A DNA stretch of 64,000 nucleotides from Octopus sinensis. Lineage: Eukaryota. The notes below the pieces were generated by a model. That model ran no database searches and was not told the DNA's origin. It saw only the letters and a list, made by a program, of their open reading frames with translations. Location of the stretch: positions 25,234,001 through 25,298,000 of the forward strand of contig NC_043005.1 of NCBI RefSeq assembly GCF_006345805.1, written 5' to 3'. Shown one piece after another: positions 9,562 through 50,450 of this stretch. Every line of letters starts with the position of its first letter. The stretch's first letter is position 1. The position numbers were made by a program, and so were the translations under genes.

Positions 9562-9649
9562 GTGCGCGCGTGTGTGTGTGTGTGTGTGTGTGAGTGTGTG
9601 TGTTTCTGTGTGTGCGTACGTGCGGCGTTCCACAATCGCCAGAAAAAAT

Positions 9650-10935
9650 CTGGGAAATTTTCTTTCTTGATGCTCCTGGTGGCACAGGTAAAACATTTGT
9701 AACAACATTGCTTCTCTCGAAGGTAAGCCAACAAAAAAGAATTTCAGTTGTTGTAGCATCGTCTGACTTTGCTGCCACCATTCTCCCAAGAAGACGATCA
9801 ACTCATTCTACTTTTAAAATACCGCTAAACCTAGTCACAAATGACAGTCCAATTCGTAACATTAGCAAAGATTTAGGTTCAGCAGAAGTGTTGCGTAATG
9901 TCACCTTATCACTTGGGATAAATACGCTATGTCGCATAGAGGTGCAATGGAAGCTCTTGTTAAGACCTTACAAAGCACAAGAGGCAACAATAAATATATG
10001 GGAGGAGTTACATTAGTTTTATCAGGAGACTTTAGACAGACATTACCAGCCATTCCGAGACGAACAAGACCTGATGAAATAAAAGTATGCATTAAGTTTT
10101 CACACCAACGGAATAAAGTGCAGAAATTCTTCTTTAATACTAATGTGCGAGCTTTATTATATGGGGACCAATGTACGTAACAGTTTTCAACATGATTCCT
10201 CCAATTAGGAAATGGGAAAGTACCATTTGATGGGAATGGAGATGTCAATTTGGCTCATATTGCTATCATGGTGAATTCCTCAGCTGAATTAAATAACAGG
10301 CTATTTCCAGATTTAAGTATTAATTATAATTCACATAAATGGTTGTGTGAAAGGGCGATTCTTGCTCCAAAAATAAACGAGACAAAAGCAAGGATTAACC
10401 ATGAATGAACAAATAAGATTCTAACAGTCATTAAAGAATACAAATCAGTTGATGCAGTCCTTGATGAAAATCAAACCGTCCATTACCAAACAGAGTTCCT
10501 TAATTCTCTTGAGCCACCTGGAACTCCTTCGTATAAACTTTTTCTGAAGGTCAGAGTCCTAATAGTGCTTCTAAGAAATTTAGATCTTCCTAAATTATGC
10601 AGTGGGACAAGGTTGATTGCGAAGACATTATCACCTAATGTGATAGAAGCTACCATCATTACTGGATGTGCCTCGGAGGAAGATGTTTTCATTCCAAGAA
10701 TTCCAAATCAAAACAACAAACTTGCCATTTGAGTTCAAACGAACACAATTCCCAGTGTGACTTTGCTTTGCAATGTCAATTAATAAAGCTCAAGGTCAGT
10801 CTTTAAAATCTACTGGCTTGCTTTTCTCATGGTCACCTTTATGTTGGTCGCTCCGGGTTTGGGAGATTGCAAGACTTATTTGTCTATGCTCCAAACCAGA
10901 ATGCGATGAATGTTGTTTACCCAGAAGCTCTTACG
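9650..10935 (+). pseudogene. Helitron RepHel PIF1-like SF1B helicase domain, frameshifted
   Basis: Motifs in order across frames: FFLDAPGGTGKTF (Walker A), VASSDFAATIL...THSTFKIP, GGVTLVLSGDFRQTLP, RAILAPK, VLLRNLDLPKLCSGTRL, IPRIP, FKRTQFPV*LCFAMSINKAQGQSL, FSHGHLYV. Multiple stops and frameshifts; no Rep domain. Confidence 0.92.
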
Positions 10936-11002
10936 TAACTTCTTCCAACATATGTCATAGAATTTATTTCCTTTCATAATAGCGGTAAATTTTCTATTTT
11001 TG

Positions 11003-11004
<2 letters not shown>

Positions 11005-11062
<58 letters not shown>

Positions 11063-11075
11063 TATTATTATTATC
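11005..11075. repeat. (ATT)n microsatellite
   Basis: Visible. Confidence 0.95.
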
Positions 11076-12239
11076 TTGTATTATGAATTCAAAATTGATT
11101 TCCCAATTAAAGAATAAATTGTATCCCAATTAAAGAATAAATGGAATTTACAATAGCAAATTTCTATACAATATATTTTGTATTTTTTCCCCAATATATA
11201 AGGAACAATTTCATTCCCGGGTAACGCCGGGTGCCTCTGCTATTATATAATAAATACACAAATACCTTTTTATTTCGAATTATACATCCCCGATGAATTT
11301 AATATGAGTTCTGAAATATTCGTAATTTTGTAAAAATTACTCAGCTTTGGCATTTACTACTTCTTATCTTTCCATGGATATACTCTTAATTTTGTTGTGA
11401 GAAATATATTTCTATTCATATATATTTGCTTCAAGTTCCAGAACGTTCTCCTTCAGAGAAAATTCCATTCCAATCCGATTTCGTATACACTTCTGGAGCA
11501 CCTCTTAGATAAGTTTTCTCTTATCACACTTTCTTTGTCATTCCTTAGAAATTTTATTTCCTTTGACGTCAGTCGAAAGTGAATCTGTGGAGATAAGTTT
11601 GCACTAAGTGATCGCTTAAACAATTACCTCATCTCATATTCATTTGTCACTATAAATTTCTATGAATAGCTTCAAGTACCAGGTTATTTCTTTAGGTATC
11701 AGTCATCTTCTTAAACCTATTCGTGAATGAATATCTGTTTTTCAGTACTCAATTACCTAGAAATTATAAAACGAACTACAACTGTTGCACACAGGTTGCT
11801 CTTATTCAGTATGTGTTTGTTGATATGATGACATTTAGAATATTTTTTAATGAAAAGTCCCACATTCTTTTGGGTTAAAAAGATTAACAAAAGAGTTATG
11901 CATTTGTCGCTAATAAATTACTCTCAATATTTTCAAAGATTTATTTAACGTATTTAATGGAATAAAAGATGCAAATAATAGCGATGCATTTCAACAGAAA
12001 TATTGTAATAAATGGTTCAAAAGAATAATTGTTTGTAACATTTTTAGAGTAATTCCAATAAAATAATTATCAAGAGTTTTCTGGAGGCATTCAGTGAGCC
12101 ATTTAAAAAAACAACAACTAGCATTGGTTCATATAAATTGAAATAACAGAAGATATGCATCGCAAAGTAGATTATAATGATTTTCTTTATAATATGGAAA
12201 ATAGTAAAATTGCGACTCAATCTCAGTATATTTAAAGAT

Positions 12240-12640
12240 AGAAGAAGCGGGGAGGAGGAGGGGGAAACAGAGGAAGTAGTAGTAGGAGGAGGGGGAAGAA
12301 GTAGAGGGAGAAGAGGAGGAAGAAGGAGAGGAATAAAAGAAGAGGGGAGGAGAAGGAAGAAGAAAAAGAAGTAGAAGAGGAAGAAGTAGAAAAGAGGAAG
12401 AAGTGACGAAGTAGAAGAAGAAGAAGAAGAAGAAGAGGGTAAGGGTGAGGAGGAGGAGGAGGAGGAGGAAGAGGTAGAAGAAGAAGAAGTAGAAGAAGAG
12501 GGTGAGGGTGAGGGTGAGGGTGAGGAGGAGGAGGAAAAGAGAGTAGAAGCACTAGAGGAAGAAGAGGTAGAAGAAAAAGAAAAAGTAAAAGAAGGAGAGG
12601 AAGGGGAGGAAGAAGTAGAAGAAGAAGAAAGAAAAAGCAG
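12240..12640. repeat. Purine-rich (GAA/GGA/GTA) low-complexity tract
   Basis: About 400 nt almost entirely A/G on the + strand. Confidence 0.95.
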
Positions 12641-13389
12641 CAAAGCAGCTATACATATGGCGCACTGTGCAGGATTACTCATAGACAAGAAATAGAGCCG
12701 AATGAAGATGAAAAAACATCATCCATGTCTCAAGTTTTTTTCCTAAATCGTCCCATGATCAAGAAACACTATTTTAGATAAACAATGAAGACCTGTAATA
12801 ATATGAACAAAATCCCCCCAGGAAACGACAAAACCTTTTACTACAGCAAGATAGTTAAATGCTGCATTCAATTATTCAGCGAACGTTTTTGTAGTCTATT
12901 GACGTGTAGACATTTAGCTACGTAGCAAAGGCTGGTCAACTTGAGAAAGAAAGAAATAGTAAAAGGGAAAACGCCATTATTATGTTGTCCTAATGATCAA
13001 GTTATTGGCAGAACCTCTAGAATTTCTAAAAAAAACTACTAGTAGACTGCTACTGAGCAGAATTCGATATCAGTATTCCAGACGACATCTTTTAAAGCTA
13101 AGGTCATTACAGAAATGGACTTGAAGCAAACGTTGATATTTTAAGTACAAGACTACCGTCGTCCTGGATCATTAAATCTCTAGATAAAAGAACCTTTCAC
13201 CGTACTTTTAACTTTACTTTGTTGGAAATATGCACAGAGAGGGAGAATGTTGTTGCAAAAGACTTGATATGAAAATGTGGTTTTAAATTATCCGTATTTC
13301 AAGCGACGATTTGGAAAACTTTACATCATGAATCAGAATCCATTTTGTATATAGTTCCGACGCTGCGTTTCACCTTAGCATTTCAACTT

Positions 13390-13700
13390 AGCATTTCACC
13401 TTTTGAAGGATTGATGGAGCTGTTAGAACGTAGAATCGGATACCTTGTTGTATTTGATTAGCTCTTCTCATTCTGATTTCAAATCTCCCAAAAGGTCTTA
13501 ATACGTCATTTCCGCCACTTAGTATTTTTGATGCCTTTAGTGAAGTCCAGCCTGTTACAAACACTCGAAGTAAGGTTGCAGTTGAAGGACATCTTTTTCT
13601 CTCCTTCCAACTAGTTTTGGAGGCCCCATAAATGATCATGGGCATTACCACAGTTATATGTAACCCATCCGTGTGAAAACACGATTAGGCTATAGATGAA
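13390..13700 (-). mobile_element. Very degenerate LINE (RTE-like) post-RT fragment
   Basis: Minus strand ...LHITVVMPMIIYGASKTSW...LLRV...W....N.VL loosely matches the Y..VV.P.L.YG.E.W motif downstream of RTE RT. Confidence 0.3.
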
Positions 13701-13826
13701 ATGATAAGACCGTTGGACACAAACATTTGTTGTCATTAATCTTCATCTGCTACGAACTCGGAACCAATCGTCCACAGCCCACTAAGAACAGGCTTTCATA
13801 TACTTAATATTTCTATGGCCTCATTT

Positions 13827-13973
13827 GTTCTTTTCTACTCTAGGCACAAGGCCCGAAACTTTTAGAGAGGGGGGGCCAGTCGATTAGATCAACCCCCTTA
13901 CGCAATTGGTAATTGATATATCGACCCCGAAAGAATGAAAGGCAAAGTCAACCTCGGTGGAATTTGAACTCAA
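13827..13973 (-). mobile_element. SINE family B, 5'-truncated, 12-bp TSD
   Basis: Reverse complement of the family B body; ATGGCCTCATTT at 13815-13826 and 13974-13985. Confidence 0.88.
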
Positions 13974-14914
13974 ATGGCCTCATTTATTTATGGGAAGGAA
14001 GAAATTATTCTTGGGCTGCAGACGTGGCAAGACTGTTACGGATTAAGGATATTATCTCAGGGCAAGAATGACCGCCCCTATGCAAGCAAGGAAAAAACAC
14101 CCACCCAGTGACAATATGAGTGTGTTAAACACGTTAACGGAATATATCTTTTATTGAAGGAAAGGAATGATTTTCTTTATGTCTGCAGAAAGCATCCATT
14201 GATACCTTAGCCTCTTGCTACTCTGATTCAAAGATCATTAAGTCTTCTCTCTAACAAGAACGTTCACTTTGATATAACTTCGATTGGTCAAATGCCATAC
14301 ATAAGGTTTTAGCCGAACCGAGACTAAGGTAGCAAAGACTTGCCCTAACTATTAAGCAGAAGTGCTATAACGAAGAAATCACCACACGAAGTATGTGAAA
14401 CAACTGTCTTCACCCTACAGTCAAATCTTGTACCAGTATTTGAATATAGATCCTAAAACAAAGCCGAAACTATTTCCTTGATCGTATTTCTCCACACCAT
14501 CACGTCCTTACTACATTATATATTACTTTTCATGTAACAAGACTTTCCACCGAATTTACAAAAATAAAACACTGAAGAAAGACAGAAATTTATTTTTCAA
14601 TTTGGATAGATTCTGGCGACTCTACACATTCACACTACAACAAAATTGGATTGGTGCATTATGAAAATGAATCAATACACGAAAATATAAAAAAAATGTT
14701 CTTTGATTATTCCAATTTATTATAAATGGTAAAAAGGAAAGAATTTTCATTCCAACGTCTTCATTTGTTTTACAGCCACACGTATCTGTGGCATGCTGGG
14801 AAACAAATTAAATGTCACATCTGATTCATTTGAATATTGCAATCTGATCTACTCGGTAGCTTGTTTCTTCTATTTTTACTTGTGTACATGTCATTATTAT
14901 AAGAAATGAAATTG

Positions 14915-15159
14915 TTCATACATACACATACATACATAGATACGTACATACATACATACATACACTTAATACGTATGTATGTGTGTGTATAAATATACAC
15001 ATATATCCACATATATACATACATAGTATATATATATTTTGTATATGTTCAAGTAATATGTATATATATATAACCGTACAAAGATGTATATGTGTGTGTG
15101 TATAAATAAATAAATAAATGAGTATACACATATTACATAAACGTTCATATATGTAACGC

Positions 15160-15243
<84 letters not shown>

Positions 15244-15946
15244 ACAACGTATACATATTTATGAATATGTAGATGTTGTTGAATGTATATACACTTATAT
15301 ACGTTTTTATCTTATATTCGCGCAGATATGCTCACATATGCATATACACACGCTGGCACATGTGAATACGAAAGAATTCAAGGTCAGGTGCATAGCCTAC
15401 GTGTATGTATATTTAAATGAGATAATGTCTATACGTATTAAAACATATCTAAATATTTCTTAGTAATAAGTTTTAATATTTCACATTGTCTATTGATTTT
15501 CCCCTTTACACAGTGTATATACTGCCTACAGTATAAAACGTACGTACACTCACGTCGTTTATTTTCTATCTTCATTTCTCTACGGATACTTATATTTTAT
15601 TGTATCACCAATAATAAAATAATGTAAATATAGGCATCTCCATGCGCATGTATCTTGACACGGTATATATAGCACACACACACACACACCGGCACACATA
15701 TACATACAAACACATACACACACAAACAAACATTTATATGTATACACATATAAATACATATACAGATGCATACGTGCATATATGCGTCTCTCCTTCTCTC
15801 GCTCTGTACATACACATACAGATACCCCCACACATGTATATTTATATATATATATATATATATAGGTGTGTGTGTGTGTGTGTATCTGTGCCTGTGTCTG
15901 TGTGTTTATAATAGATGCACATGCACAAACCCGGGAACAAACGCAG

Positions 15947-16019
<73 letters not shown>

Positions 16020-16020
16020 A
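14915..16020. repeat. Cluster of (TACA)n, (TA)n, (CA)n and (ATCT)n microsatellites
   Basis: Pure (TA)n at ~15161-15241; (ATCT)n at ~15947-16019. Confidence 0.95.
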
Positions 16021-16049
16021 CACATGTAAACTATATAGATACGTACATA

Positions 16050-16569
16050 CCGTAAATCCTCGAGTATAGTCCGCCCTTGAGTATAATACGCAAGGGATTT
16101 TTAGAGGGCTGTACTTCTGAAACACCTAAACCTTGTGTATAATACACGCCCCTTCTCTAACTTGAGTCATGCGTAATTAAGCCAGCAGGACCTAGTCGAA
16201 CAAACACTTCCGCGCATGCATAATACAATAAAGGTGATGTTCTTAACTGTTATATGGGAATGTAAATATGTTTCCAAATTGTTTTTGTTACATGTTATTC
16301 TTTGTTCTGAATACTTTTATTTTAATAAATGTTGCTTACTGCAAGTTATGGATGATTCTTTTATGACTTCATCGCTTTCAGGCTTAGCTTAAGGTATTTT
16401 CGCACCCGACATCACAAAATATGTCTGAATAAACATTGTCGGACAGCAAATAGAGACTCGGACATTGCTTAGAAAATATTTTTCATGTTTAACGTCGTAT
16501 ATAGTACGCACAAGGGATTTTGACCTTTAAATTATAGCAAAAACGTGGGGATTATACTCGAGGATTTAC

Positions 16570-16571
<2 letters not shown>
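16050..16571. mobile_element. Tc1/mariner-pogo type non-autonomous DNA transposon (MITE)
   Basis: Perfect 19-bp TIR CCGTAAATCCTCGAGTATA / TATACTCGAGGATTTACGG with TA on both sides. Internal sub-terminal repeats GTATAATAC.C. No ORF. Confidence 0.9.
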
Positions 16572-16612
<41 letters not shown>

Positions 16613-16619
16613 TATATAT

Positions 16620-16783
16620 AGGCGCAGGAGTGGCTGTGTGGTAAGTAGCTTGTTTACCAACCACATGGTTCCGGGTTCAGTCGCACTGCGTGGCACCTTG
16701 GGCAAGTGTCTTCTACTATAGCCTTGGGCCGACCAAAGCCTTGTGAGTGGATTTGGTAGACGGAAACTGAAAGAAGCCCGTCG

Positions 16784-16841
<58 letters not shown>

Positions 16842-17060
16842 GTGTGCATGTATGTTTGTGTGTCTGTGTTTGTCCCCCTAGCATTGCTTGACAACCGATG
16901 CTGGTGTGTTTATGTCCCCGTCACTTAGCGGTTCGGCAAAAGAGACCGATAGAATAAGTACTAGGCTTACAAAGAATAAGTCCCGGAGTCGAGTTGCTCG
17001 ACTAAAGGCGGTGCTCCAGCATGGCCGCAGTCAAATGACTGAAACAAGTAAAAGAGTAAA
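16620..17060 (+). mobile_element. SINE family A, full length
   Basis: AGGCGCAGGAGTGGCTGTGTGGTAAG (A box), GGTTCAGTC (B box), CORE-like ACCTTGGGCAAGTGTCTT, internal (TA)/(TG) tract, 3' half and GTAAAAGA tail. Resembles octopus OR-type SINEs from memory. Confidence 0.92.
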
Positions 17061-17089
17061 GATATATATATATTATAATCATTATATCT

Positions 17090-17770
17090 TTATCACAGGC
17101 TTTGTTGATACTCCTGGAGTCTTGCCTGCGTAGAGGGCTTACTACCTGCACACTACGGTACCATGCTATTCGTTTTTTTCAGCTCTTTTATACTTTCATG
17201 ATTATTTTGGCCGTGTTAAGGAGACAAACCTCTTGTAATAGTTCCTCTGGGCACTCTATTCCAATTTCCTTTATATTCCTCTTGATGTCTTCTGATACTG
17301 TTCCCAAGGACCCAATAATAATTGGCATTATCTTCACCTTCATTTTCCAAACCAGATCTGTTTGGATTGGGAAATCCCAGAGGATTTTGCTAGTCTCTGA
17401 CTCTGAGGTCTGTCCTCATACCACGTCTTGCCTCTCTCTAGCCCACTTTTCGCATAGTTTCCAATGTAGCACTTTCGCTACCTGGTCGTGTCCCCACAAC
17501 TTGTAGTGGTTTTGGGCAAGTTCAGGGCTTTGGTTCGTGATATGGGCAATGGTTTCATCTACTCAATTACAGATGCGGCACAGCGGAGACACTTATCCAT
17601 TTCTAAGAATGCCCCCCGCCAGAGGTTGGTCCCGCGCTGCCAGTATAGTCCTTGTGGTCTCATTTTTTAGGTTTCCTTTCATCAGCTAATCCCACCTATT
17701 TTTTCAGCGACTTCTGTTGTGGCTACATGGAATTGATCCCTTCTTGCGTAATTCTTCTTTATATCTTTTA
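17090..17770 (-). mobile_element. R4/Dong-like LINE 3' fragment with internal deletion
   Basis: Minus strand: LAARDQ, PLCRICN*VDETIAHI (CCHC knuckle), HDQVAKVLHWKLCEK, KILWDFPIQTD, then directly WKMKVKIMPIIIGSLGTV...LLQEVCLLNTAKII. The PD..D catalytic block is missing. Confidence 0.85.
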
Positions 17771-17774
17771 TATT

Positions 17775-17892
17775 TATAATTATAATAATGATAATTATTA
17801 TTGTTGTTGTTGCTCTTCTTCTTCTTCTTCTTCTTCTTCTTCTTCTTCTTCTTCTTCTTCTTCTTCTTCTCTTCTTCTTCTTCTTCTTCTTT
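17775..17892. repeat. (ATT)-(GTT)-(CTT)n microsatellite
   Basis: Visible. Confidence 0.95.
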
Positions 17893-18869
17893 CTTTTGCT
17901 TTTGCATAGCGATAGCAAAAGCCTGTAGTTGAAACCCAGTATGCCTATTTGTAAATCTGTGCGATTTGTTTGTGCGTATTTTGCGTTCTTGTGTATGTAT
18001 TCGTATCGTATGCTAGGCCATCTATCTAGTCTTTTGACTTATAGCGTCTAGTTTAAAATGCACAGAGATTCTTTTTTTTATTTCTATAACCACGAGTGTG
18101 CAACGTGTATCATGAAGAGATTGTGAATGAAACGAAGAAGGAGAGAAAAGAAAAAAAGAGAAAAAGACTTAAAGAAAAGTAAAATTACCGTATGAATTGA
18201 TTTCTTTGAAGATGTAATGTATTTGATACCTCACTGATACTGACGTGTTTTGAATCGAACTATTTTTCTATCAGGTGATAAAAAAACGGATATATAAAGG
18301 TGCTATATGAACTATCAGAAGCTTTTGAAGATTTCCAAGTGAGAATAATTTGGTAGACTGAGGAGAAGACTGCTAGTTTTGGAAGTGAAGTTAATGTGCA
18401 CTTTAATACTTTGAACATTACCATAATTTGTGTGGCGAAGGGGAGCCAAGCACATAAATAAATTGATTGGTGTATAGTTTAGACATATACACCTATATGC
18501 TTTTTTCTCCTTTTTCGAGATGAGCGACGGTTTGTCACTGGAAAAAGCATATATAGTATTTTGCGTTTGGAATGAGTTTTCATCACTAGCTGGTGATTGT
18601 CACACTCTGATGACGGGTTACTACTCAGAAACACTGGTCTGTGTGTATCACGATTTCCCTTCGCAAATACTGATCGGACACAGTGTGTCGTTAGCCAGCT
18701 GGAGGAGATCTCCTGGGGCTATAAACAACAGTTGCATCGTCCCATATAAGTCAGGCACATTTAGGTGGCAAATATACTTCATGATGTGCTGCTACAGAGA
18801 TTTATTATTGCTATAAATATAAGGGAACACAGACACACACACACACGCGCGCACACCCCATATATATAC

Positions 18870-18919
<50 letters not shown>

Positions 18920-18923
<4 letters not shown>

Positions 18924-19126
18924 GTGTCTGTGTTTGTCCCCCTACCGTCGCTTGGCAACCGATGGTGGTGTGTTTACGCGCCCTAACTTAGCGGTTCGGT
19001 AAAAGAAACGATAGAATAAGTACTAGACTTACAAAGAATAAGTCCTGGGGTCGATTTGTTCGACTAAAAGCTGTGTTCTTGCATGGCTGCAGTCAAATGA
19101 TTGAAACAAGCGAAAGAGTAAAAGAA
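18920..19126 (+). mobile_element. SINE family A, 3' half only
   Basis: Starts at the internal (TA)n/TGTG tract and matches the 16860-17060 half. Confidence 0.85.
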
Positions 19127-19328
19127 TATGTATACATACCGACTTGTTACTTACTGCAAATATGCTTGAAACATATTCGAACACGCAAGAAAGACAATCA
19201 CTGTATTTTGTTATCGTGGAGGATATTTCTCGATGCAGACAAATACGTGTAAATACACCGAGTCAACTCTTAGAAGTTATTTACGCTCTGTGCTTTTACC
19301 TGCTTTTTATATTATGTGTATGGAACAG

Positions 19329-19546
19329 AAGGCGGCGAACTGGCAGAAATGTTAGCACGCCGGGCGAAATGCTTAACGGCGTTTCGCCTCTCTTTAGGTT
19401 CTGAGTTCAATTTCCTCCGAGTTCGACTTCGCCTTTCATCCTTTCGGGGTCGATAAATTAACTACCAGTTACCTACTGGGGTCGATTTAATCGACTGGCT
19501 TCCTTCCCCAAAATTTTGGGCCTTGGGCCTGGAGTTGGAAAGATTA
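19329..19546 (+). mobile_element. SINE family B
   Basis: AAGGCGGCGAACTGGCAGAAATGTTAGCACGCCGGGCG through to the AAGATTAT tail. Confidence 0.88.
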
Positions 19547-19622
19547 TATGTATGTATGTGAGTATGCATACGGCTACAGATGCATGTACTTCTGAAAATA
19601 ATTAAAACTATGATTTGATCAG

Positions 19623-19906
19623 GTACAGATGTAAGGAAGGAAGTGCCCCCTATGTATTCGAATAATCGTGCGCAAAATGCTAATGATGTTAAGTGTTTTA
19701 TAGGAAGTGTCAAAGAATTTGGTCTTGAATGTTCGTATAGAGACTCATCACAAGACCGCATCGACAGATACATTAATGGCAAGCATATTGGGCTCTCTTC
19801 GAGAATGGGGATGCACCGAGTGAATTTCCCACCTTACCGTGGTACTTCGGTCGATGATGGTTGTTATTGTGCAGCTAAGACCCATACTTTGTCCTATCAT
19901 ATGTAA
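19623..19906 (+). other. Unique-sequence open frame with weak immunoglobulin-domain resemblance (candidate exon or pseudo-exon)
   Basis: Stop-free frame after CAG (19620-19622): LEC...IDRYINGK...DDGCYCAAK echoes Ig C..I.WY.NG..D.G.Y.C.A spacing, but the invariant Trp is absent. Confidence 0.2.
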
Positions 19907-20433
19907 TGATTTATTGTGTGGTTTCTCATGTAGCAGTATTATTATGTTTGTAGGCGAGAAGCGTACTGCACAGTAATATGTGTGGTAATTTATTTTGTTA
20001 TTTGTAGTGGCCACTTGTACAACAGAAAACCAAACTGCGTACTGCTATATATATAACGATACGGCAGTGTGACCATGTTGTACAGTGGCCACATTGTTCA
20101 GTCTGTTTAGATGTCTGAAGTTCTTTAGCTCAAAGTCGGAAAGTCAGCGCAAGACTTGTATTAATCTCGTTATCGAGCAAATGTATAGAAACTCTGATGT
20201 AGTTTTATCGTGTCTCTGTTCTAGATTCGTCTCAGGTTAGTTTTATGTTAGAAGATTTAAACTCAAAGGCTTTCTTGACGTGAAGATCCTTCATATTTTT
20301 CGGATTTTGTAAATATAGAACTTTATCACACACTATACATCTTTTCTTTTTAGTAATATAGTGTGGTTCAATGGCGATTTAGCTACTATATGAAGACCAA
20401 TGACCGCTTAGTGGCAACCATGCTAGGTGGTCT

Positions 20434-20816
20434 GTGTGGAGGTGCATTGGCCCAGTGGCTGGTGCAGCAGACTCGCGGTCATAGGATCGCGGTTTCGATT
20501 CCTAGACCGGGCGTTGTGAGTGTTTATTGAGCTAAAACACCAAAACAGCTCCACAAGGCTCCGGCAGGGGTTAGCGGCAAACCCTGATGTATTCTTTCAC
20601 CACAACTTTCATTCTTTCTTCCTGTTTCTATTGTACCTGTATTTCAAAGGGCCAGCCTTGTCACATTCTGTGTCACGCTGAATCTCCCCGAGAACTACGT
20701 TAAGAATACACGTGTCTGTGGAGTCCTCAGCCACTTGCACGTAAATTTCACGAGGAGGCTGTTCTGTTGATCGGATCAACTGGAACCCTCGTCATCGTAA
20801 CCAACGGAGGGCTACG
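20434..20816 (+). mobile_element. SINE family D (tRNA-derived), 9-bp TSD
   Basis: A box TGGCCCAGTGG, B box GGTTTCGATTCC. AGGTGGTCT at 20425-20433 and 20817-20825. Second copy inverted at 31262-31618. Confidence 0.88.
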
Positions 20817-21418
20817 AGGTGGTCTACGCATGTAATGCTGATCGGTTTTTAGATGGAAGGCATAACATCTGGACATAGTTTCAAATGTAGATGTCATTCA
20901 GTATGAAAGTTCTTAAATGTAGTTATTATAGTTAGCTTTATTTCATTGTTGTTGATAGTGTTTCTGTGGAACAAGAACATGGAAATATCATATTTACCTA
21001 GTTATAGATAGCAATTCGTTTATAGAGAAATAGGCCAAAGTCATGGGGATCAGGTAGTGATGTACTGTATCTGCAGATAACATCTAACAAACGTTGAAAA
21101 ACAAGATCCGACAGCATTTTCCGAGTTGTGGCGTTTTGGAACTACAGCCATCATTAAAAGGAAAAACAGGATGAACAATCGAGAAGTGCGACTGGAAGAA
21201 AGGAAATAAGAAAGTTCGGAAAGATTTTGAACTGTGTCAGCAGAAAATAGAAGAAACATGTGATCTCTTGATGTGAATAAGAACAAAAGAAAGTGGTGAT
21301 AACTCTTCACAAACACACTCACACAAACGTACACACGTGCGCACACACATATCTGTATATCTGTATATACAGAAATAGAGAAATAAAGAGGCAGAAAGTA
21401 AGAGAAAGAAAGAGAATA

Positions 21419-21461
<43 letters not shown>

Positions 21462-22118
21462 ATTGTACAGTGACCTACACATCTATGTATGTACTTACAG
21501 ACATAAGCGACAATAAAGTAGGTGAAAAATTCAACGGATTATACCGACATTACTTTGATGCTTGCTTCACACTTCAGGGCTCCTATTAACCCACGTTTCA
21601 ATACTGAATAGATGAATCTACAAATCACCCTTCTTTCAAAGAAACGTGACCATGCGCCACCTTTAAACTTTAATATTTCTGCAGGCATTACCGGACATGT
21701 TTCTTTCTCTTAATTCTCTCCTCTCCCTACCACAAACCACTCCCTCATTCTTCTTCAGATAGATTCTTCATTTTCAAATATGCAGGCGAGCGTGGTTTGT
21801 TGGTATGCTCGTGCTTGCGAACGCACGTGGATTGTGAAATTTTCTTACAATGATACCTCCATATCACTCCCCCACTCTACAACATTCCCTCATTACGGTT
21901 CTTTTCTCCCTTCTACTCTGTGTTTAACGATCCTTAATTTCATTTGCGACCCGTATCGTGGATACAGACTTCTATGAACGTTTGTTTATAGATCTATACA
22001 TATACATGCATACATATATCCACACATACATAGAAAGATACATACATACATTACATACATGTATCTGTTTAGTGTTAACTCGGAAAAATGATACTCAGTA
22101 CAACAGAAATATATAACG

Positions 22119-22149
<31 letters not shown>

Positions 22150-24444
22150 GTACACACGAGTGTGAGTACGTGTGTGTGAGTGTGTTAGTGTATATCCTCG
22201 GTCGATGTGTATCGAGGAAGAATATAATTATATGTAAACCAAAAATGTCCGTGTCTTCTAGTGAAGATCCCGGCACTATTTCTTCTGCACTGTGTTAAAA
22301 CTCGATTGTCATTCTTGTCAGCATTCAGTAGACAATGGCCGCCATAACCGGAGATGCTAGTGTCCACAAAAGCCTTATAAAAATAACATAAATGAAACTC
22401 AAGCAAGTACTATTGAATGCAAGGAGGAAGAAAATGGATGTTTACAGATAATGTCTTTCAAAATGGGAACAGATATAATCAGAAATTAAAACGATCGTTT
22501 TTGTATGAACTGAAATTACTTTCTGACTTCCCAGCTGTCGTTAATGTCTACTAAGTTGGGAGATTAACCCAGAAAATATCTGCTTTTGATTTCAGTAACA
22601 TTGTTTTCTAAATGTACTCTATTAACCTGTAGAAAATCCTTTAATACACAACCAGTTCTGGTAATAAAACTCTTCAGCCAACTGTACAGGTACTTAATCC
22701 TCAAGGTCCGTCAATAGAGTTTTAGTTTTAATCTTTAGTTAATTTTTTTCTCTTTGTTACATTTGTCTCCTCGCCAAGCTTTTGTGCCATCTTTTGTGTC
22801 TCGCTTTTGTCCCGTTTATATAATTTAAAACACGCATTGATATCCAATATTTCTCTTTATATAATATTTCAAGATATCTATCTTTTCCACTCTTTACACC
22901 CTCCTTACTCACAGCGTTTGTTTTCTCTTACTCTCTCTCTCTCTCTCCATTTGTCTCTCTTTCCCTCTCAGTCGGATCATATTGTTTAACAAAAACAGAC
23001 AAAAAAATAAAATATGTGACGCGCCAAGAAACAAGAGTGATTATATCTATATCGAAATTTCATGTCAATTTGGTTATTTGCCATTTTGGCATCGATTTTC
23101 TCAACGCTTGCCAAATTATAAGTACGGACGCGTGACACGTAGCATATGTCAAGATTTTAAAATTGAGATATACATCTCAAAACTCAAATTAAAAACAAGA
23201 TTACAGACACAAATTAAAAGCTTTTAGGAAAATTTATTTAAAAAGAAATTGATACATGACTATGCAAGGAAGTGCGTTGTGGGTGAGTTGGAAGTGTATT
23301 GTTAGCACTAGAATAACACTAGAGATGATAACCGTAGCCATCCGCCATTTTTAATGCTGTATACAACTACATTGCCCAATGTTCTTCTCCTTTATTCACG
23401 ACAGTGAGGTGATATGATATTTCAAGTAGAAGGAGAGATTATTTAAAGGCTGCCTCACTGATTGAAGAAGTGATATCTAACCTTAGACTAGCCATGATCA
23501 ATATGACATATGATTAAAGGTTTTCCAACCATGACTATCCAGTATTTTCAGTGGTATCATAGATATTATATTACCTACTGTATTTTTGCTTGCTACTGAT
23601 ACTCTTCATCCCAAATTCATTTCTCATCAAGCTGACGTTTGATCAATTGTGTTCCAGACGTGACCATCTCTTCTCTATTTCAAACATGACAATCCAGTGC
23701 GACTATCCTTTTTTAAAGCTGCTCTTTTAAGATGCTTTATTTACGGTTAGTATATTTCTGCATGATATTTGATGGAATTTTAAGAAGGTTTTTTTCATTC
23801 ACACAACTTCAGTTATGTTGTTGGCAAATGGCATGTTTCTATGTATTCATCTTTTCTTCTGTTCATATAAAATGTGGAACGGGTAGCATGTGGTCTTTAA
23901 GTTCGTTTCACTCTAGTAAATGCTCCATCTCTTGACATTGGAATCTTTTATCCGTCCGTTTAAGGCTTAATAAATAATATACTAACATGTAGGAGGGTGG
24001 CTTGGCCAAGTTGTCCGAATAATGGGCAGACTATGCCTTTAGTTATGCTTCTTTATTTTCAAGTTCTACTGAGATCAACTTTGCCTTTTATGCGCGAACA
24101 TTCACCTAGATTCATCTAGATTCAAATGTCGCTACATCAATGCCAGTATATACTCGTCTGAAGCGCCTATATTTGGATGTTCGGTTATTTTATTTCCTAA
24201 CATCATTCACCCTTATATGAACAGTAACACTAATGTATAAATATTTTCGTCACTTAAATGTAAACTAAATTTTCATATTGGTGCTGCTTTTCCTTTCGAT
24301 AAAATAAACCAGTTCACTTTTGAGCATTATTTAAATTGGCATTTATTATAGAACATTGCCGAAACGCTCACCTCCGAACGGTACATAATTACATTAGGTA
24401 TTTGAGGCAGTGAATTTGTGCGCTTATATTTATGTAATCTCAGA

Positions 24445-48300: not shown

Positions 48301-48981
48301 TTTCATCACGTTTATGCATATACCTACGCATTCGTAGAAACATATTCACGCCTACAGAAAAGCAAAACTTAGAATAAACATGCTATAAACCAAAATATAT
48401 ACCAGCTGCACAAATATTTAAATATCACGAGAGGTATGCAATGAAGAGAAGAGACAAAGATAGTGAGTGAGAGACAAAGGAGGAAAAAGAGAGGGAATGA
48501 GGGGAGTGTAAACGAAAGAACATAAGGGAATAACGATAAAGAACTGGGGTAGATTCGATTAAGCTAGTATTTTATTGATTAAAGCTGACGACAAATATTT
48601 ATTATTGGATTTTTCATTGCTCTGCAACTTGCAGTGAAATGAAATAGGTGCTGAGAGCTATTGGCCTGCATTATAATAGAATTAACTATTGCTGAAGGGT
48701 AAGCAATATTCTGCAACAAAATTAACGATGAGGAAAGAGCAGTGTAATTGAAACGTATCAGTTTACTATGAAAAATGGCGAGTTACTGTTGTGATTTCAG
48801 CAAGCATGCGCTAAGATACGATTTCAAATCTTTGATATGCAAATTCAAGAATAATTGTTTTATTTGTTAAATAAAGAAACTGTACCATTCTATATTTAAG
48901 AATTGATGAATTATGTACATTATTTAAATTATTTACATTATTTATATTGGACGGATATTTGTCCTCATCTTGTTTGTGGTT

Positions 48982-49027
48982 AACACAACGTTTCGGCTGA
49001 TATACTCTCCAGCCTTCATCGGGTGTC
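48982..49027 (-). ncRNA. Minimal hammerhead motif, left arm
   Basis: GACAC-C(C)GAUGA-A-GGCUG-n10-CAGCC-GAAA-CG-UU-GUGUU. Confidence 0.65.
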
Positions 49028-49075
49028 TTGGGGGAAATTTCGAACCTGGGTTCTCATTCCTAAGGTATTTTTCGA

Positions 49076-49154
<79 letters not shown>

Positions 49155-49203
49155 ACATGGAAAATACCTTAGAAATGAGAACCCACGTTTGAAATTTCCC
49201 CCA

Positions 49204-49249
49204 AACACCCGATGAAGGCGGGAGGGTATATCAGCCGAAACGTTGTGTT
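49204..49249 (+). ncRNA. Minimal hammerhead motif, right arm
   Basis: AACAC-C(C)GAUGA-A-GGCGG-n10-CAGCC-GAAA-CG-UU-GUGUU. Confidence 0.6.
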
Positions 49250-49564
49250 AACAACAAAGAAGATCAGGAGAAATATCCGTCACATGTAAATAATGTAAAG
49301 AAACTGTATATCATATCATTTTATTGTTGTACGTTGAAATCCCGAAGAAATTGACCTTATTTCAAATTTAACAGATATTTTGTGAGAAAAACTCTTAAAA
49401 ACGGCATGACTTTGTAGTTAAGAAGTTCGCTTCGCAATCACATGGTCTCAGGTTCGGCTCTACTGTGCAGCAACTTGGGTAGGTGCCTGCTACTAAAACC
49501 CCAAGCGACCAATGTCTTGTGAATCTGGTTGATGGAGACATGTGTGTGTGGATGCGTATGTATG

Positions 49565-50156: not shown

Positions 50157-50450
50157 ATACATAGGTACAGGACGTCACTAGCAGTACAAATAACAGGAAA
50201 TACGTAAACAGTCGAGGGAAACACGAGTGAAATACGTGAACAAAGAGTAAAAATGGAAAACAGGACTGGTAAACACAGAGAATGCTCGAAACGATAAGTA
50301 GATAAACAGCCGACAACTGATGAAGGGTCTTTTCGCTGCTTTTTACTTGTCCTGTTTTCTATCTTTTCACGTTGTTCACGTATTTCACTCGTTTTTCCCT
50401 CGTTTGCTTACGTATTTCATGTTATTTGCACAGCTGGAAACGTCCTGCAT

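What the first reader, a model, noticed from the sequence alone, without database searches (positions are those of the whole stretch)
48872..49308. TSD-bounded fold-back unit with two outward-facing hammerhead motifs around an (ATT)n core
Seen: two ~145-nt inverted arms separated only by (ATT)n, bracketed by a perfect 13-bp direct repeat, so the whole structure looks like one insertion. Each arm folds as a minimal type I hammerhead (5-bp helix I, GGCUG/CAGCC-type helix II, GAAAC-GU-U). Established: Penelope-like elements carry minimal hammerheads with a palindromic helix III in their pseudo-LTRs and often leave inverted pLTR pairs. Inference: this is a protein-free, retrozyme-like unit that would present a ribozyme whichever strand is transcribed, and it carries its own microsatellite. 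If intronic, it also forms a long dsRNA stem, a candidate ADAR substrate in a lineage known for heavy A-to-I editing.
Basis: partly seen in the sequence, partly recalled or inferred. Interest (0 to 1): 0.75.

Follow-up and report, generated by a model that had tools for sequence, protein, structure and literature searches.

The report
Inverted tip of tRNA-headed Penelope retrotransposon

Summary
The structure is real: a 13-bp direct repeat, two arms about 90% identical, and (ATT)24. It is not a protein-free retrozyme. Each arm is the pseudo-LTR of a 2.6-kb Penelope/Poseidon-type retrotransposon (RT plus GIY-YIG) and holds the ORF's start codon and a minimal hammerhead. The microsatellite is internal to that pLTR. 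Head-to-head pairs are the family's usual insertion (55 of 90 position-ordered loci), with the 3' tail on one arm only (83 of 90 pairs) and TSDs (67 of 83): the published PLE signature. Both hammerheads here carry U4C, one has a broken helix II, the arms would pair with each other, and two related runs appear to have lost the left one, so a ribozyme function here is unlikely. The interest lies in the parent. A tRNA-like A/B-box head precedes the (AAT)n, 72 of 88 arms that reach it stop there, and the whole unit has no T4 terminator. That suggests Pol III transcription (inferred; a TATA-driven Pol II start is a rival). An unrelated metagenomic PLE shows the same layout. This scan found this family before on other DNA.

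The parts
48872..48884 (+). Left copy of the 13-bp direct repeat, very likely the target-site duplication
   Evidence: family: 67 of 83 asymmetric pairs have >=10/12 matching flanks vs 1.6% of 1660 mismatched controls
48885..48931 (-). PLE 'tail', present on this arm only; in longer copies it abuts the rest of the ORF
   Evidence: tail directly precedes the ORF in 25 of 30 loci with the ORF 5' part; four of them are one segmental duplication
48885..49151 (-). Tailed arm: pLTR copy, 5'-truncated inside the internal (AAT)n
   Evidence: 87-91% identical to pLTR copies at ORF-bearing loci L268, L295, L299
48982..49027 (-). Minimal type I hammerhead, U4C; helices I and II intact; predicted cut between 48987 and 48986
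49055..49057 (-). ATG of the element's ORF in the left arm (frame shifted shortly after)
   Evidence: the same ATG opens a frame running into the RT ORF in L299
49080..49151 (-). (AAT)24, internal microsatellite of the pLTR, lying between the tRNA-like head (absent here) and the ATG
49150..49155 (.). Inversion junction, palindromic TTATAA microhomology
   Evidence: sequence
49154..49299 (+). Tail-less arm: pLTR copy ending in the AAATAATGT repeats; its last 4 nt (TAAA) overlap the direct repeat
49175..49177 (+). ATG of the ORF in the right arm
49204..49249 (+). Minimal type I hammerhead, U4C plus a G-A mismatch in helix II (49220)
49296..49308 (+). Right copy of the 13-bp direct repeat

Best explanation
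The unit is a 5'-truncated, head-to-head double copy of the pseudo-LTR of an abundant protein-coding Penelope/Poseidon-type retrotransposon, likely made in one insertion event by the element's own enzyme priming reverse transcription from both cut target strands at two sites about 35 nt apart in its RNA. SHOWN: the parent unit is [tRNA-like head]-(AAT)n-[ATG, hammerhead, tail]-RT-GIY-YIG ORF, joined head to tail; short copies are usually inverted pairs with a tail on one arm and a TSD of about 12-14 bp; the two arms of a pair share derived bases more often than shuffled pairs. INFERRED by analogy to the Anolis Poseidon enzyme (PMC11167929): both DNA strands are nicked, one cDNA starts at the tail end and one about 35 nt upstream, both copy uncleaved RNA through the hammerhead toward the RNA 5' end, stop early (here in and just after the (AAT)n) and are joined by microhomology. 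INFERRED, less secure (about 0.6): the RNA 5' end is set by a Pol III-type promoter in the tRNA-like head, which explains the excess of ~300-nt SINE-like copies. This copy is a decaying passenger that lacks the head.
For: Parent found: the GIY-YIG C-terminus lies directly upstream of the head (2198 candidates); near-full-length copy L268; RVT_1 hit E=1.2e-9; CCHH endonuclease without a linker Zn finger, aligned to PF01541-bearing homologs; arm ATG in frame with the ORF. Geometry: 55 of 90 position-ordered loci have an inverted partner upstream, 0 convergent, 5 tandem; 83 of 90 pairs have the tail on one arm only; TSD in 67 of 83 vs 1.6% of controls; shared derived bases 27 vs 9.3+-2.9, maximum 21 in 1000 permutations. 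The same architecture is described in PMC3846280 and PMC8557442 (passages) and PMC11167929 (parts 1-2 of 4). Decay: CpG columns mutated in about 20-30% of arms, mean non-CpG divergence 4.5%, core intact in 23 of 87 unselected arms. Contigs of runs X8 and X5 leave the left flank at 48859 and continue with sequence matching 49041 onward, best read as a 181-bp deletion of the left TSD, tail and hammerhead.
Against: No empty site was recovered in 6 distinct runs laid. No intact full-length ORF was seen; the longest copies have stops and frameshifts. Pfam did not detect GIY-YIG in the C-terminal segment, so that assignment rests on alignment. Neither arm is consistently the longer at the centre (41 tail-less longer, 30 tailed longer, 7 equal of 78 junctions); this fits twin priming but does not exclude fold-back in some copies. 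Shared derived bases could also come from subfamily structure or gene conversion. Short copies could come from internally deleted masters: 8 of 30 loci jump from ORF nt 228-265 back into the pLTR.
Confidence: 0.85

Rival explanations
1. The short copies, including this one, belong to a separate non-autonomous SINE-like lineage (tRNA head plus pLTR) that borrows the PLE enzyme in trans.
For: Exact 18-mer counts fall from 5447 in the head to 1065 just upstream; 72 of 88 arms reaching the head start stop there; mini-units of head-body-ORF(1-~250)-head exist (L290, L305).
Against: Head, (AAT)n and arm are contiguous with the ORF end and the ORF start in autonomous copies. In the Anolis enzyme the template needs the first 172 nt of the ORF (PMC11167929), which short inserted copies lack. 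No diagnostic short-only subfamily stood out, though this was not tested formally.
Confidence: 0.12
2. On the promoter only: the RNA 5' end is set by a Pol II TATA-type promoter at the ORF end, or by a reverse-transcriptase stop at the GCCCACGGGC hairpin, and the tRNA-like head is a passive captured SINE.
For: A TATA-like TTTATAAG (overlapping the stop codon) lies about 30 nt upstream of the upstream part of the stop cluster, with an Inr-like TCACT between (sequence); TATA/Inr motifs are reported in rotifer Penelope pLTRs (PMC3846280 passage). A T4-free ORF also occurs in one PLE family without A/B boxes (L362/L381). The synonymous-codon shuffle of T4 absence is not significant (p=0.08).
Against: A and B boxes at tRNA spacing are retained in 79 of 108 heads; the largest single class of stops is at +2 of the tRNA-like sequence; 0 T4+ among 25 T3 runs in 2.57 kb against a pooled fraction of 0.29 in 45 related loci of similar T content; a second, distant PLE has head + AAT + hammerhead and a T4-free ORF beyond its first 360 nt.
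Confidence: 0.35
3. One reading: a protein-free retrozyme-like unit that works as a two-way ribozyme or an ADAR substrate at this locus.
For: Both strands carry a hammerhead motif; the fold-back is predicted to be very stable; the left junction is shared with runs whose flank differs by about 7% (X12, X14).
Against: The arms are ORF-bearing pLTR pieces; non-LTR retrozymes are defined as tandem repeats (PMC7229834 passages; bioRxiv 10.64898/2026.07.22.740005 parts 1-3); both cores are U4C, which lowers activity in vitro (PMC3088659 passage); the duplex would sequester the cores; the left hammerhead appears deleted in runs X5 and X8.
Confidence: 0.04

Closest known systems
Penelope/Poseidon-clade EN+ PLEs, in particular PAc (Poseidon_Ac) of Anolis (Frangieh et al. 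2024, PMC11167929; parts 1-2 of 4 read)
   Same: Single RT + C-terminal GIY-YIG ORF; pLTR overlapping the ORF start with the hammerhead inside the first codons; two 3' end classes 30-40 nt apart; partial tandems; copies run through the hammerhead, as expected if uncleaved RNA is the template.
   Different: The pLTR here contains a tRNA-like A/B-box head and an (AAT)n; 5' ends pile up at the head; the sense strand lacks T4 runs. None of this is mentioned in the parts read.
Adineta vaga Penelope insertions (PMC3846280, passages) and the general PLE structure (PMC8557442, passages)
   Same: Inverted 5'-truncated pLTR, tail on one end only, palindromic junction, TSDs (8-10 bp there), pLTR containing the first codons.
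   Different: TSD about 12-14 bp; very high copy number (9,345 exact 18-mer matches); tRNA-like head.
Minimal hammerheads of metazoan PLEs (Cervera & de la Pena 2014, PMC4209133; parts 1-2 of 4 read)
   Same: Short helix I, unpaired base after A9, G10.1-C11.1, palindromic AACGUU; dual motifs 100-700 bp apart on opposite strands were already noted in Schistosoma.
   Different: This locus has U4C in both arms, and helix II is 5 bp rather than 7-8.
Schistosoma Sm-alpha/Sj-alpha SINE-like elements (review PMC6765202, passage) and metazoan non-LTR retrozymes (PMC7229834 passages; bioRxiv 10.64898/2026.07.22.740005 parts 1-3 of 5)
   Same: Pol III-type promoter followed by a type I hammerhead (Sm-alpha); PLE-related hammerhead repeats (retrozymes).
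   Different: Those are non-coding tandem repeats; here the promoter-like head and hammerhead are part of an autonomous coding element and the copies are inverted.
TRIMp3 elements Cassandra, Helenus, Ajax (PMC10886601, passages)
   Same: A small-RNA-derived Pol III promoter placed inside a terminal repeat.
   Different: Non-autonomous LTR elements under 1.3 kb; that paper argues their autonomous partners must use Pol II.

Membership tests
EN+ Penelope-like element | Single ORF with RT and C-terminal GIY-YIG endonuclease linked to the arm | tested here: met
   RVT_1; endonuclease by alignment; Pfam missed it
EN+ Penelope-like element | pLTR in partial tandem and inverted 5'-truncated copy | tested here: met
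EN+ Penelope-like element | 30-40 nt tail at one end only | tested here: met
   83 of 90 pairs; two 3' end classes
EN+ Penelope-like element | Target-site duplication | tested here: met
   67 of 83 vs 1.6% control; no empty site seen at this locus
Penelope/Poseidon clade | CCHH in the endonuclease, no CX2-5CxxC linker finger, C-terminal EN | tested here: met
   criteria from PMC8557442 passages
Penelope/Poseidon clade | RT tree placement with named Repbase references | tested here: inconclusive
   quick tree without named references; 40% identity to an unnamed Anolis PLE protein P0043
Minimal type I hammerhead | Core CUGANGA / GAAAC-GUH with helices I and II | tested here: met
   family majority CUGAUGA; helix I compensatory changes across 5 sequences from 3 PLE families (small n); this locus deviates by U4C
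Minimal type I hammerhead | Self-cleavage | not testable with these tools
   needs an in vitro assay
Non-LTR retrozyme | Non-coding tandem repeats with a hammerhead in each monomer | tested here: not met
   5 of 90 loci tandem, 55 inverted; arms are ORF 5' sequence
tRNA-derived SINE | A and B boxes at tRNA spacing at the 5' end | tested here: met
   parent family only, not this copy; best local match among own-genome tRNAs fetched is Arg(TCT), z about 7, but few isotypes were sampled; no ARAGORN or Rfam tRNA hit for the head
tRNA-derived SINE | Non-autonomous lineage distinct from its partner | tested here: not met
   the head is part of the autonomous pLTR; a short-only sublineage was not formally excluded
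Pol III transcription unit | No sense-strand T4+ terminator within the transcript | tested here: met
   0 in 2572 nt; dinucleotide shuffle p 0.02-0.04, synonymous shuffle p 0.08; one control family also T4-free
Pol III transcription unit | Pol III-dependent RNA starting at the head | not testable with these tools
   no raw RNA reads for it were available

The most novel reading that the evidence does not exclude
The parent is an autonomous, protein-coding Penelope-like retrotransposon whose whole 2.6-kb RNA is made by RNA polymerase III from a captured tRNA promoter in its pLTR, with terminator runs purged from the ORF. Internal RT initiation then makes one RNA yield both SINE-like inverted tips (this locus) and full copies. 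A second, distant PLE (L337) has the same head-AAT-hammerhead layout, pointing to a repeated route by which coding retrotransposons switch to Pol III.
Probability: 0.4. Interest if true: 0.75.

Novelty: new variant of a known kind. Interest (0 to 1): 0.5.

Why it matters
The locus itself is ordinary PLE debris, and this removes the case for a bidirectional ribozyme device. The family matters for two reasons. First, its many insertions give in vivo statistics for the two-site internal initiation reported in vitro for one Poseidon enzyme, including the unexplained inverted step. Second, if the head is a working Pol III promoter, this is a protein-coding retrotransposon transcribed by the polymerase that normally serves non-coding SINEs. 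That raises a testable question of how an uncapped RNA is translated and whether the hammerhead inside the ORF start plays a part. The element also scatters (AAT)n tracts into which other retroelements insert.

Tried and rejected
Rfam over the locus and over family copies gave only microsatellite-driven or chance hits, no hammerhead; an RF00163 genome search found other PLE hammerheads. ARAGORN found no tRNA in 12 family loci, and Rfam none in the L337 head. The first partner hunt through PF01541 (5029 candidates, 30 loci plus 20 extended regions) found only other PLE families with no DNA match to the arm. PF26215 is not in the Pfam copy. My early reading, a tRNA-headed SINE parasite of PLEs, was dropped. 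The idea that 5' pLTR remnants stop at the hammerhead cut site was rejected: many run through it. A strict cDNA fold-back model (tailed arm always longer) was not supported. Empty-site search: none in runs X5, X6, X8, X10, X12, X14. No RNA holder was listed, so expression and editing were not examined. No host gene was identified; ORFs of 120 aa or more in the window look like simple-repeat or transposon fragments by eye and short exons were not searched. One search used a mis-registered structure string; one search is the corrected count. The A/B-box pattern was too strict and was corrected. The tree is the quick one; the careful search did not finish and L409 was left out. The Fisher test (p=8e-4) overstates significance because three of its four control ORFs are one family.

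Full report
OBSERVATION. The structure is as described. An exact 13-bp direct repeat at 48872-48884 and 49296-49308 brackets two inverted arms, 89.9% identical over 148 nt, around (ATT)24. The left arm continues about 45 nt beyond the right one. Both arms have the minimal type I hammerhead layout, but both read CCGAUGA (U4C) and the right one has a mismatch in helix II. Rfam reports no hammerhead here.

A HIGH-COPY FAMILY. A 34-nt core motif has 1,928 exact matches, and 96 of the first 100 listed have canonical CUGAUGA. An 18-mer of the arm has 9,345 exact matches; at the 4.5% non-CpG divergence measured that implies roughly 20,000 arms (my estimate). Four runs of other samples each hold 11,000-23,000 contigs that lie on the stretch. 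In most copies the arm is preceded by (AAT)n and a tRNA-like head with A and B boxes, so the microsatellite is internal to the element.

INSERTION GEOMETRY. I took 90 of the first 100 listed core matches on one chromosome (left out: one pair already held and the last eight). Of these, 55 have an inverted arm upstream, 64 some inverted piece, 0 a convergent arm, 5 a tandem arm and 65 a head. Among 90 divergent pairs found in 175 loci, 83 carry the tail on one arm only. Of those 83, 67 have flanks matching at 10 or more of 12 positions, against 1.6% of 1,660 mismatched controls. The arms of 82 pairs share 27 derived non-CpG bases, against 9.3+-2.9 in permutations (maximum 21 in 1,000). Neither arm is consistently longer at the centre (41, 30 and 7 of 78 junctions). 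Inverted pLTR, one-sided tail, palindromic junction and TSD are the published PLE pattern (PMC3846280 and PMC8557442, passages).

THE PARENT IS AUTONOMOUS. Upstream of the head, several loci carry the C-terminus of a GIY-YIG protein (2,198 candidates). Locus L268 is a near-full-length copy: inverted tail-less pLTR, partial 5' pLTR, ORF, 3' pLTR. The ORF has RVT_1 (E=1.2e-9) and a CCHH endonuclease with no linker finger (Pfam itself missed this domain), which fits Penelope/Poseidon by the criteria in PMC8557442. In 25 of 30 loci with the ORF 5' part the tail directly precedes it (four are one segmental duplication). An ATG inside the arm opens a frame that runs into the ORF in L299, and in frame with stops in L289 and L295. 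So the hammerhead lies in coding sequence, and U4C is synonymous. No intact full-length ORF was seen.

MECHANISM. For the Anolis Poseidon enzyme, PMC11167929 (parts 1-2 of 4 read) reports nicking and extension of both strands, internal RT initiation at two sites that delimit the tail, and use of uncleaved RNA. By analogy (inferred), one cDNA began at the tail end and one about 35 nt upstream; both ran through the hammerhead, stopped in and just after the (AAT)n, and were joined at TTATAA.

NO SIGN OF FUNCTION AT THIS LOCUS. Copies decay neutrally: CpG columns are mutated in about 20-30% of arms and the core is intact in 23 of 87 unselected arms. Of 18 pairs with C at position 4 in an arm, only this one has it in both, so it probably came from the template. 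U4C lowers activity in vitro yet allowed viroid infectivity (PMC3088659 passage). Minimal hammerheads showed no activity as monomers (PMC4209133). A read-through RNA is predicted to form one duplex of -220.8 kcal/mol. Runs X12 and X14 (flank about 7% diverged) keep the left junction, so the insertion is old. Runs X5 and X8 (2-3% diverged) leave the flank at 48859 and continue with sequence matching 49041 onward, best read as loss of the left hammerhead. Selection on the ribozyme acts on source elements: N7 varies (13 of 92 arms), and helix I covaries across three PLE families (five sequences only).

THE UNUSUAL PART: THE HEAD. Exact CpG-free 18-mer counts run 9,345 (arm), 5,447 (head), 1,065 (52 nt upstream of the head 18-mer) and 760 (105 nt further). 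Of 133 arms reaching into the head, 45 stop between +6 and +60, 72 between -19 and +5 (the -19 to -10 class reflects a local palindrome) and 16 go further. A and B boxes persist in 79 of 108 heads. The 2,572-nt unit has 25 T3 runs and no T4+, against 9-13 T4+ in five other PLE ORFs of this genome (at least three of them one family) and a pooled T4+ fraction of 0.29 in 45 related loci of similar T content. Against this reading: shuffles give only p 0.02-0.04 (dinucleotide) and 0.08 (synonymous); one family without boxes also has a T4-free ORF (L362/L381); and a TATA-like TTTATAAG sits about 30 nt upstream of part of the stop cluster, so a Pol II start is a live rival. Among 36 related metagenomic loci with enough 3' sequence, one (L337) has A and B boxes after the ORF (shuffled rate 0.4%), followed by AAT repeats and a minimal hammerhead. 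Its only two T4 runs per unit lie 235-355 nt after the A box, which would stop Pol III early unless read through. L337 is about 37% identical in RT and sits on another branch of a quick tree with a weak backbone, so an independent origin is likely but not shown.

LITERATURE AND PRIOR NOTES. Searches found no description of this family or of a Pol III-driven autonomous PLE. The library is open-access only, no supplements were read, and Repbase and Dfam could not be checked; the supplement of PMC8557442 or Repbase may list the element. One search was seen as a listing only. PMC6962438 and PMC8967140 (passages) mention cephalopod hammerheads, Penelope, Dong-R4 and SINEs only in general. After I had reached this reading, scan notes showed the same family on other DNA: four with the same autonomous/Pol III reading and three calling it a SINE-like parasite. 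They are not independent support.

VERDICT. The family is a new variant of a known kind because of the tRNA-like head. A Pol III start for the short copies is about 0.6 likely, Pol III for the whole coding RNA about 0.4. Interest 0.5.

Noticed in passing
L337:2820-3030 (metagenome contig): A distant Poseidon-like element in a 2,791-nt tandem unit with an A/B-box tRNA-like segment ending in CCA, then AAT repeats and a minimal hammerhead; its ORF is T4-free beyond the first 360 nt after the A box.
   Followed up: partly
L029, L090, L180, L011, L154, L165, L122, L123, L129 and L007, L119, L171, L174, L191, L207: Other (AAT)n-tailed retroelements sit in or against the element's internal (AAT)n. 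One group ends in a restriction-like endonuclease C-terminus (R4/Dong-like; label recalled), another is non-coding.
   Followed up: partly
L280, L290, L293, L296, L298, L302, L304, L305: 8 of 30 loci jump from ORF nt 228-265 back into the head or arm, suggesting template jumps or internally deleted mini-elements; the query covered ORF nt 4-246, which biases this.
   Followed up: no
L283/L284, L287, L292, L294: Copies whose 3' ends lie 310-420 nt into the ORF rather than at the tail, one pair with ends 57 nt apart: possible further RT start sites.
   Followed up: no
L035, L060, L354: Hammerhead-like motifs with CCGAUGA or CCGACGA (U4C) near other PLE ORFs, so U4C may be tolerated in some families.
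   Followed up: no
L362:3001-4906, L381:3001-5123: A PLE family whose ORF has no T4 run in about 2 kb but whose 3' region is T-rich and lacks A/B boxes.
   Followed up: partly
window 49400-49535: A degenerate tRNA-headed SINE-like fragment about 90 bp right of the unit; high depth in all four runs.
   Followed up: no
window 50225-50390: A second, unrelated inverted repeat of about 165 nt (chance Rfam MIR847 hit).
   Followed up: no
window 9594-10016: ORF fragment with a Walker A-like motif (DAPGGTGKT), resembling a Helitron/PIF1 helicase (label recalled, not tested).
   Followed up: no
L268-L271: The near-full-length copy lies in a segment of at least 7.7 kb present four times at 98-99.8% identity (segmental duplication or assembly redundancy).
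   Followed up: no
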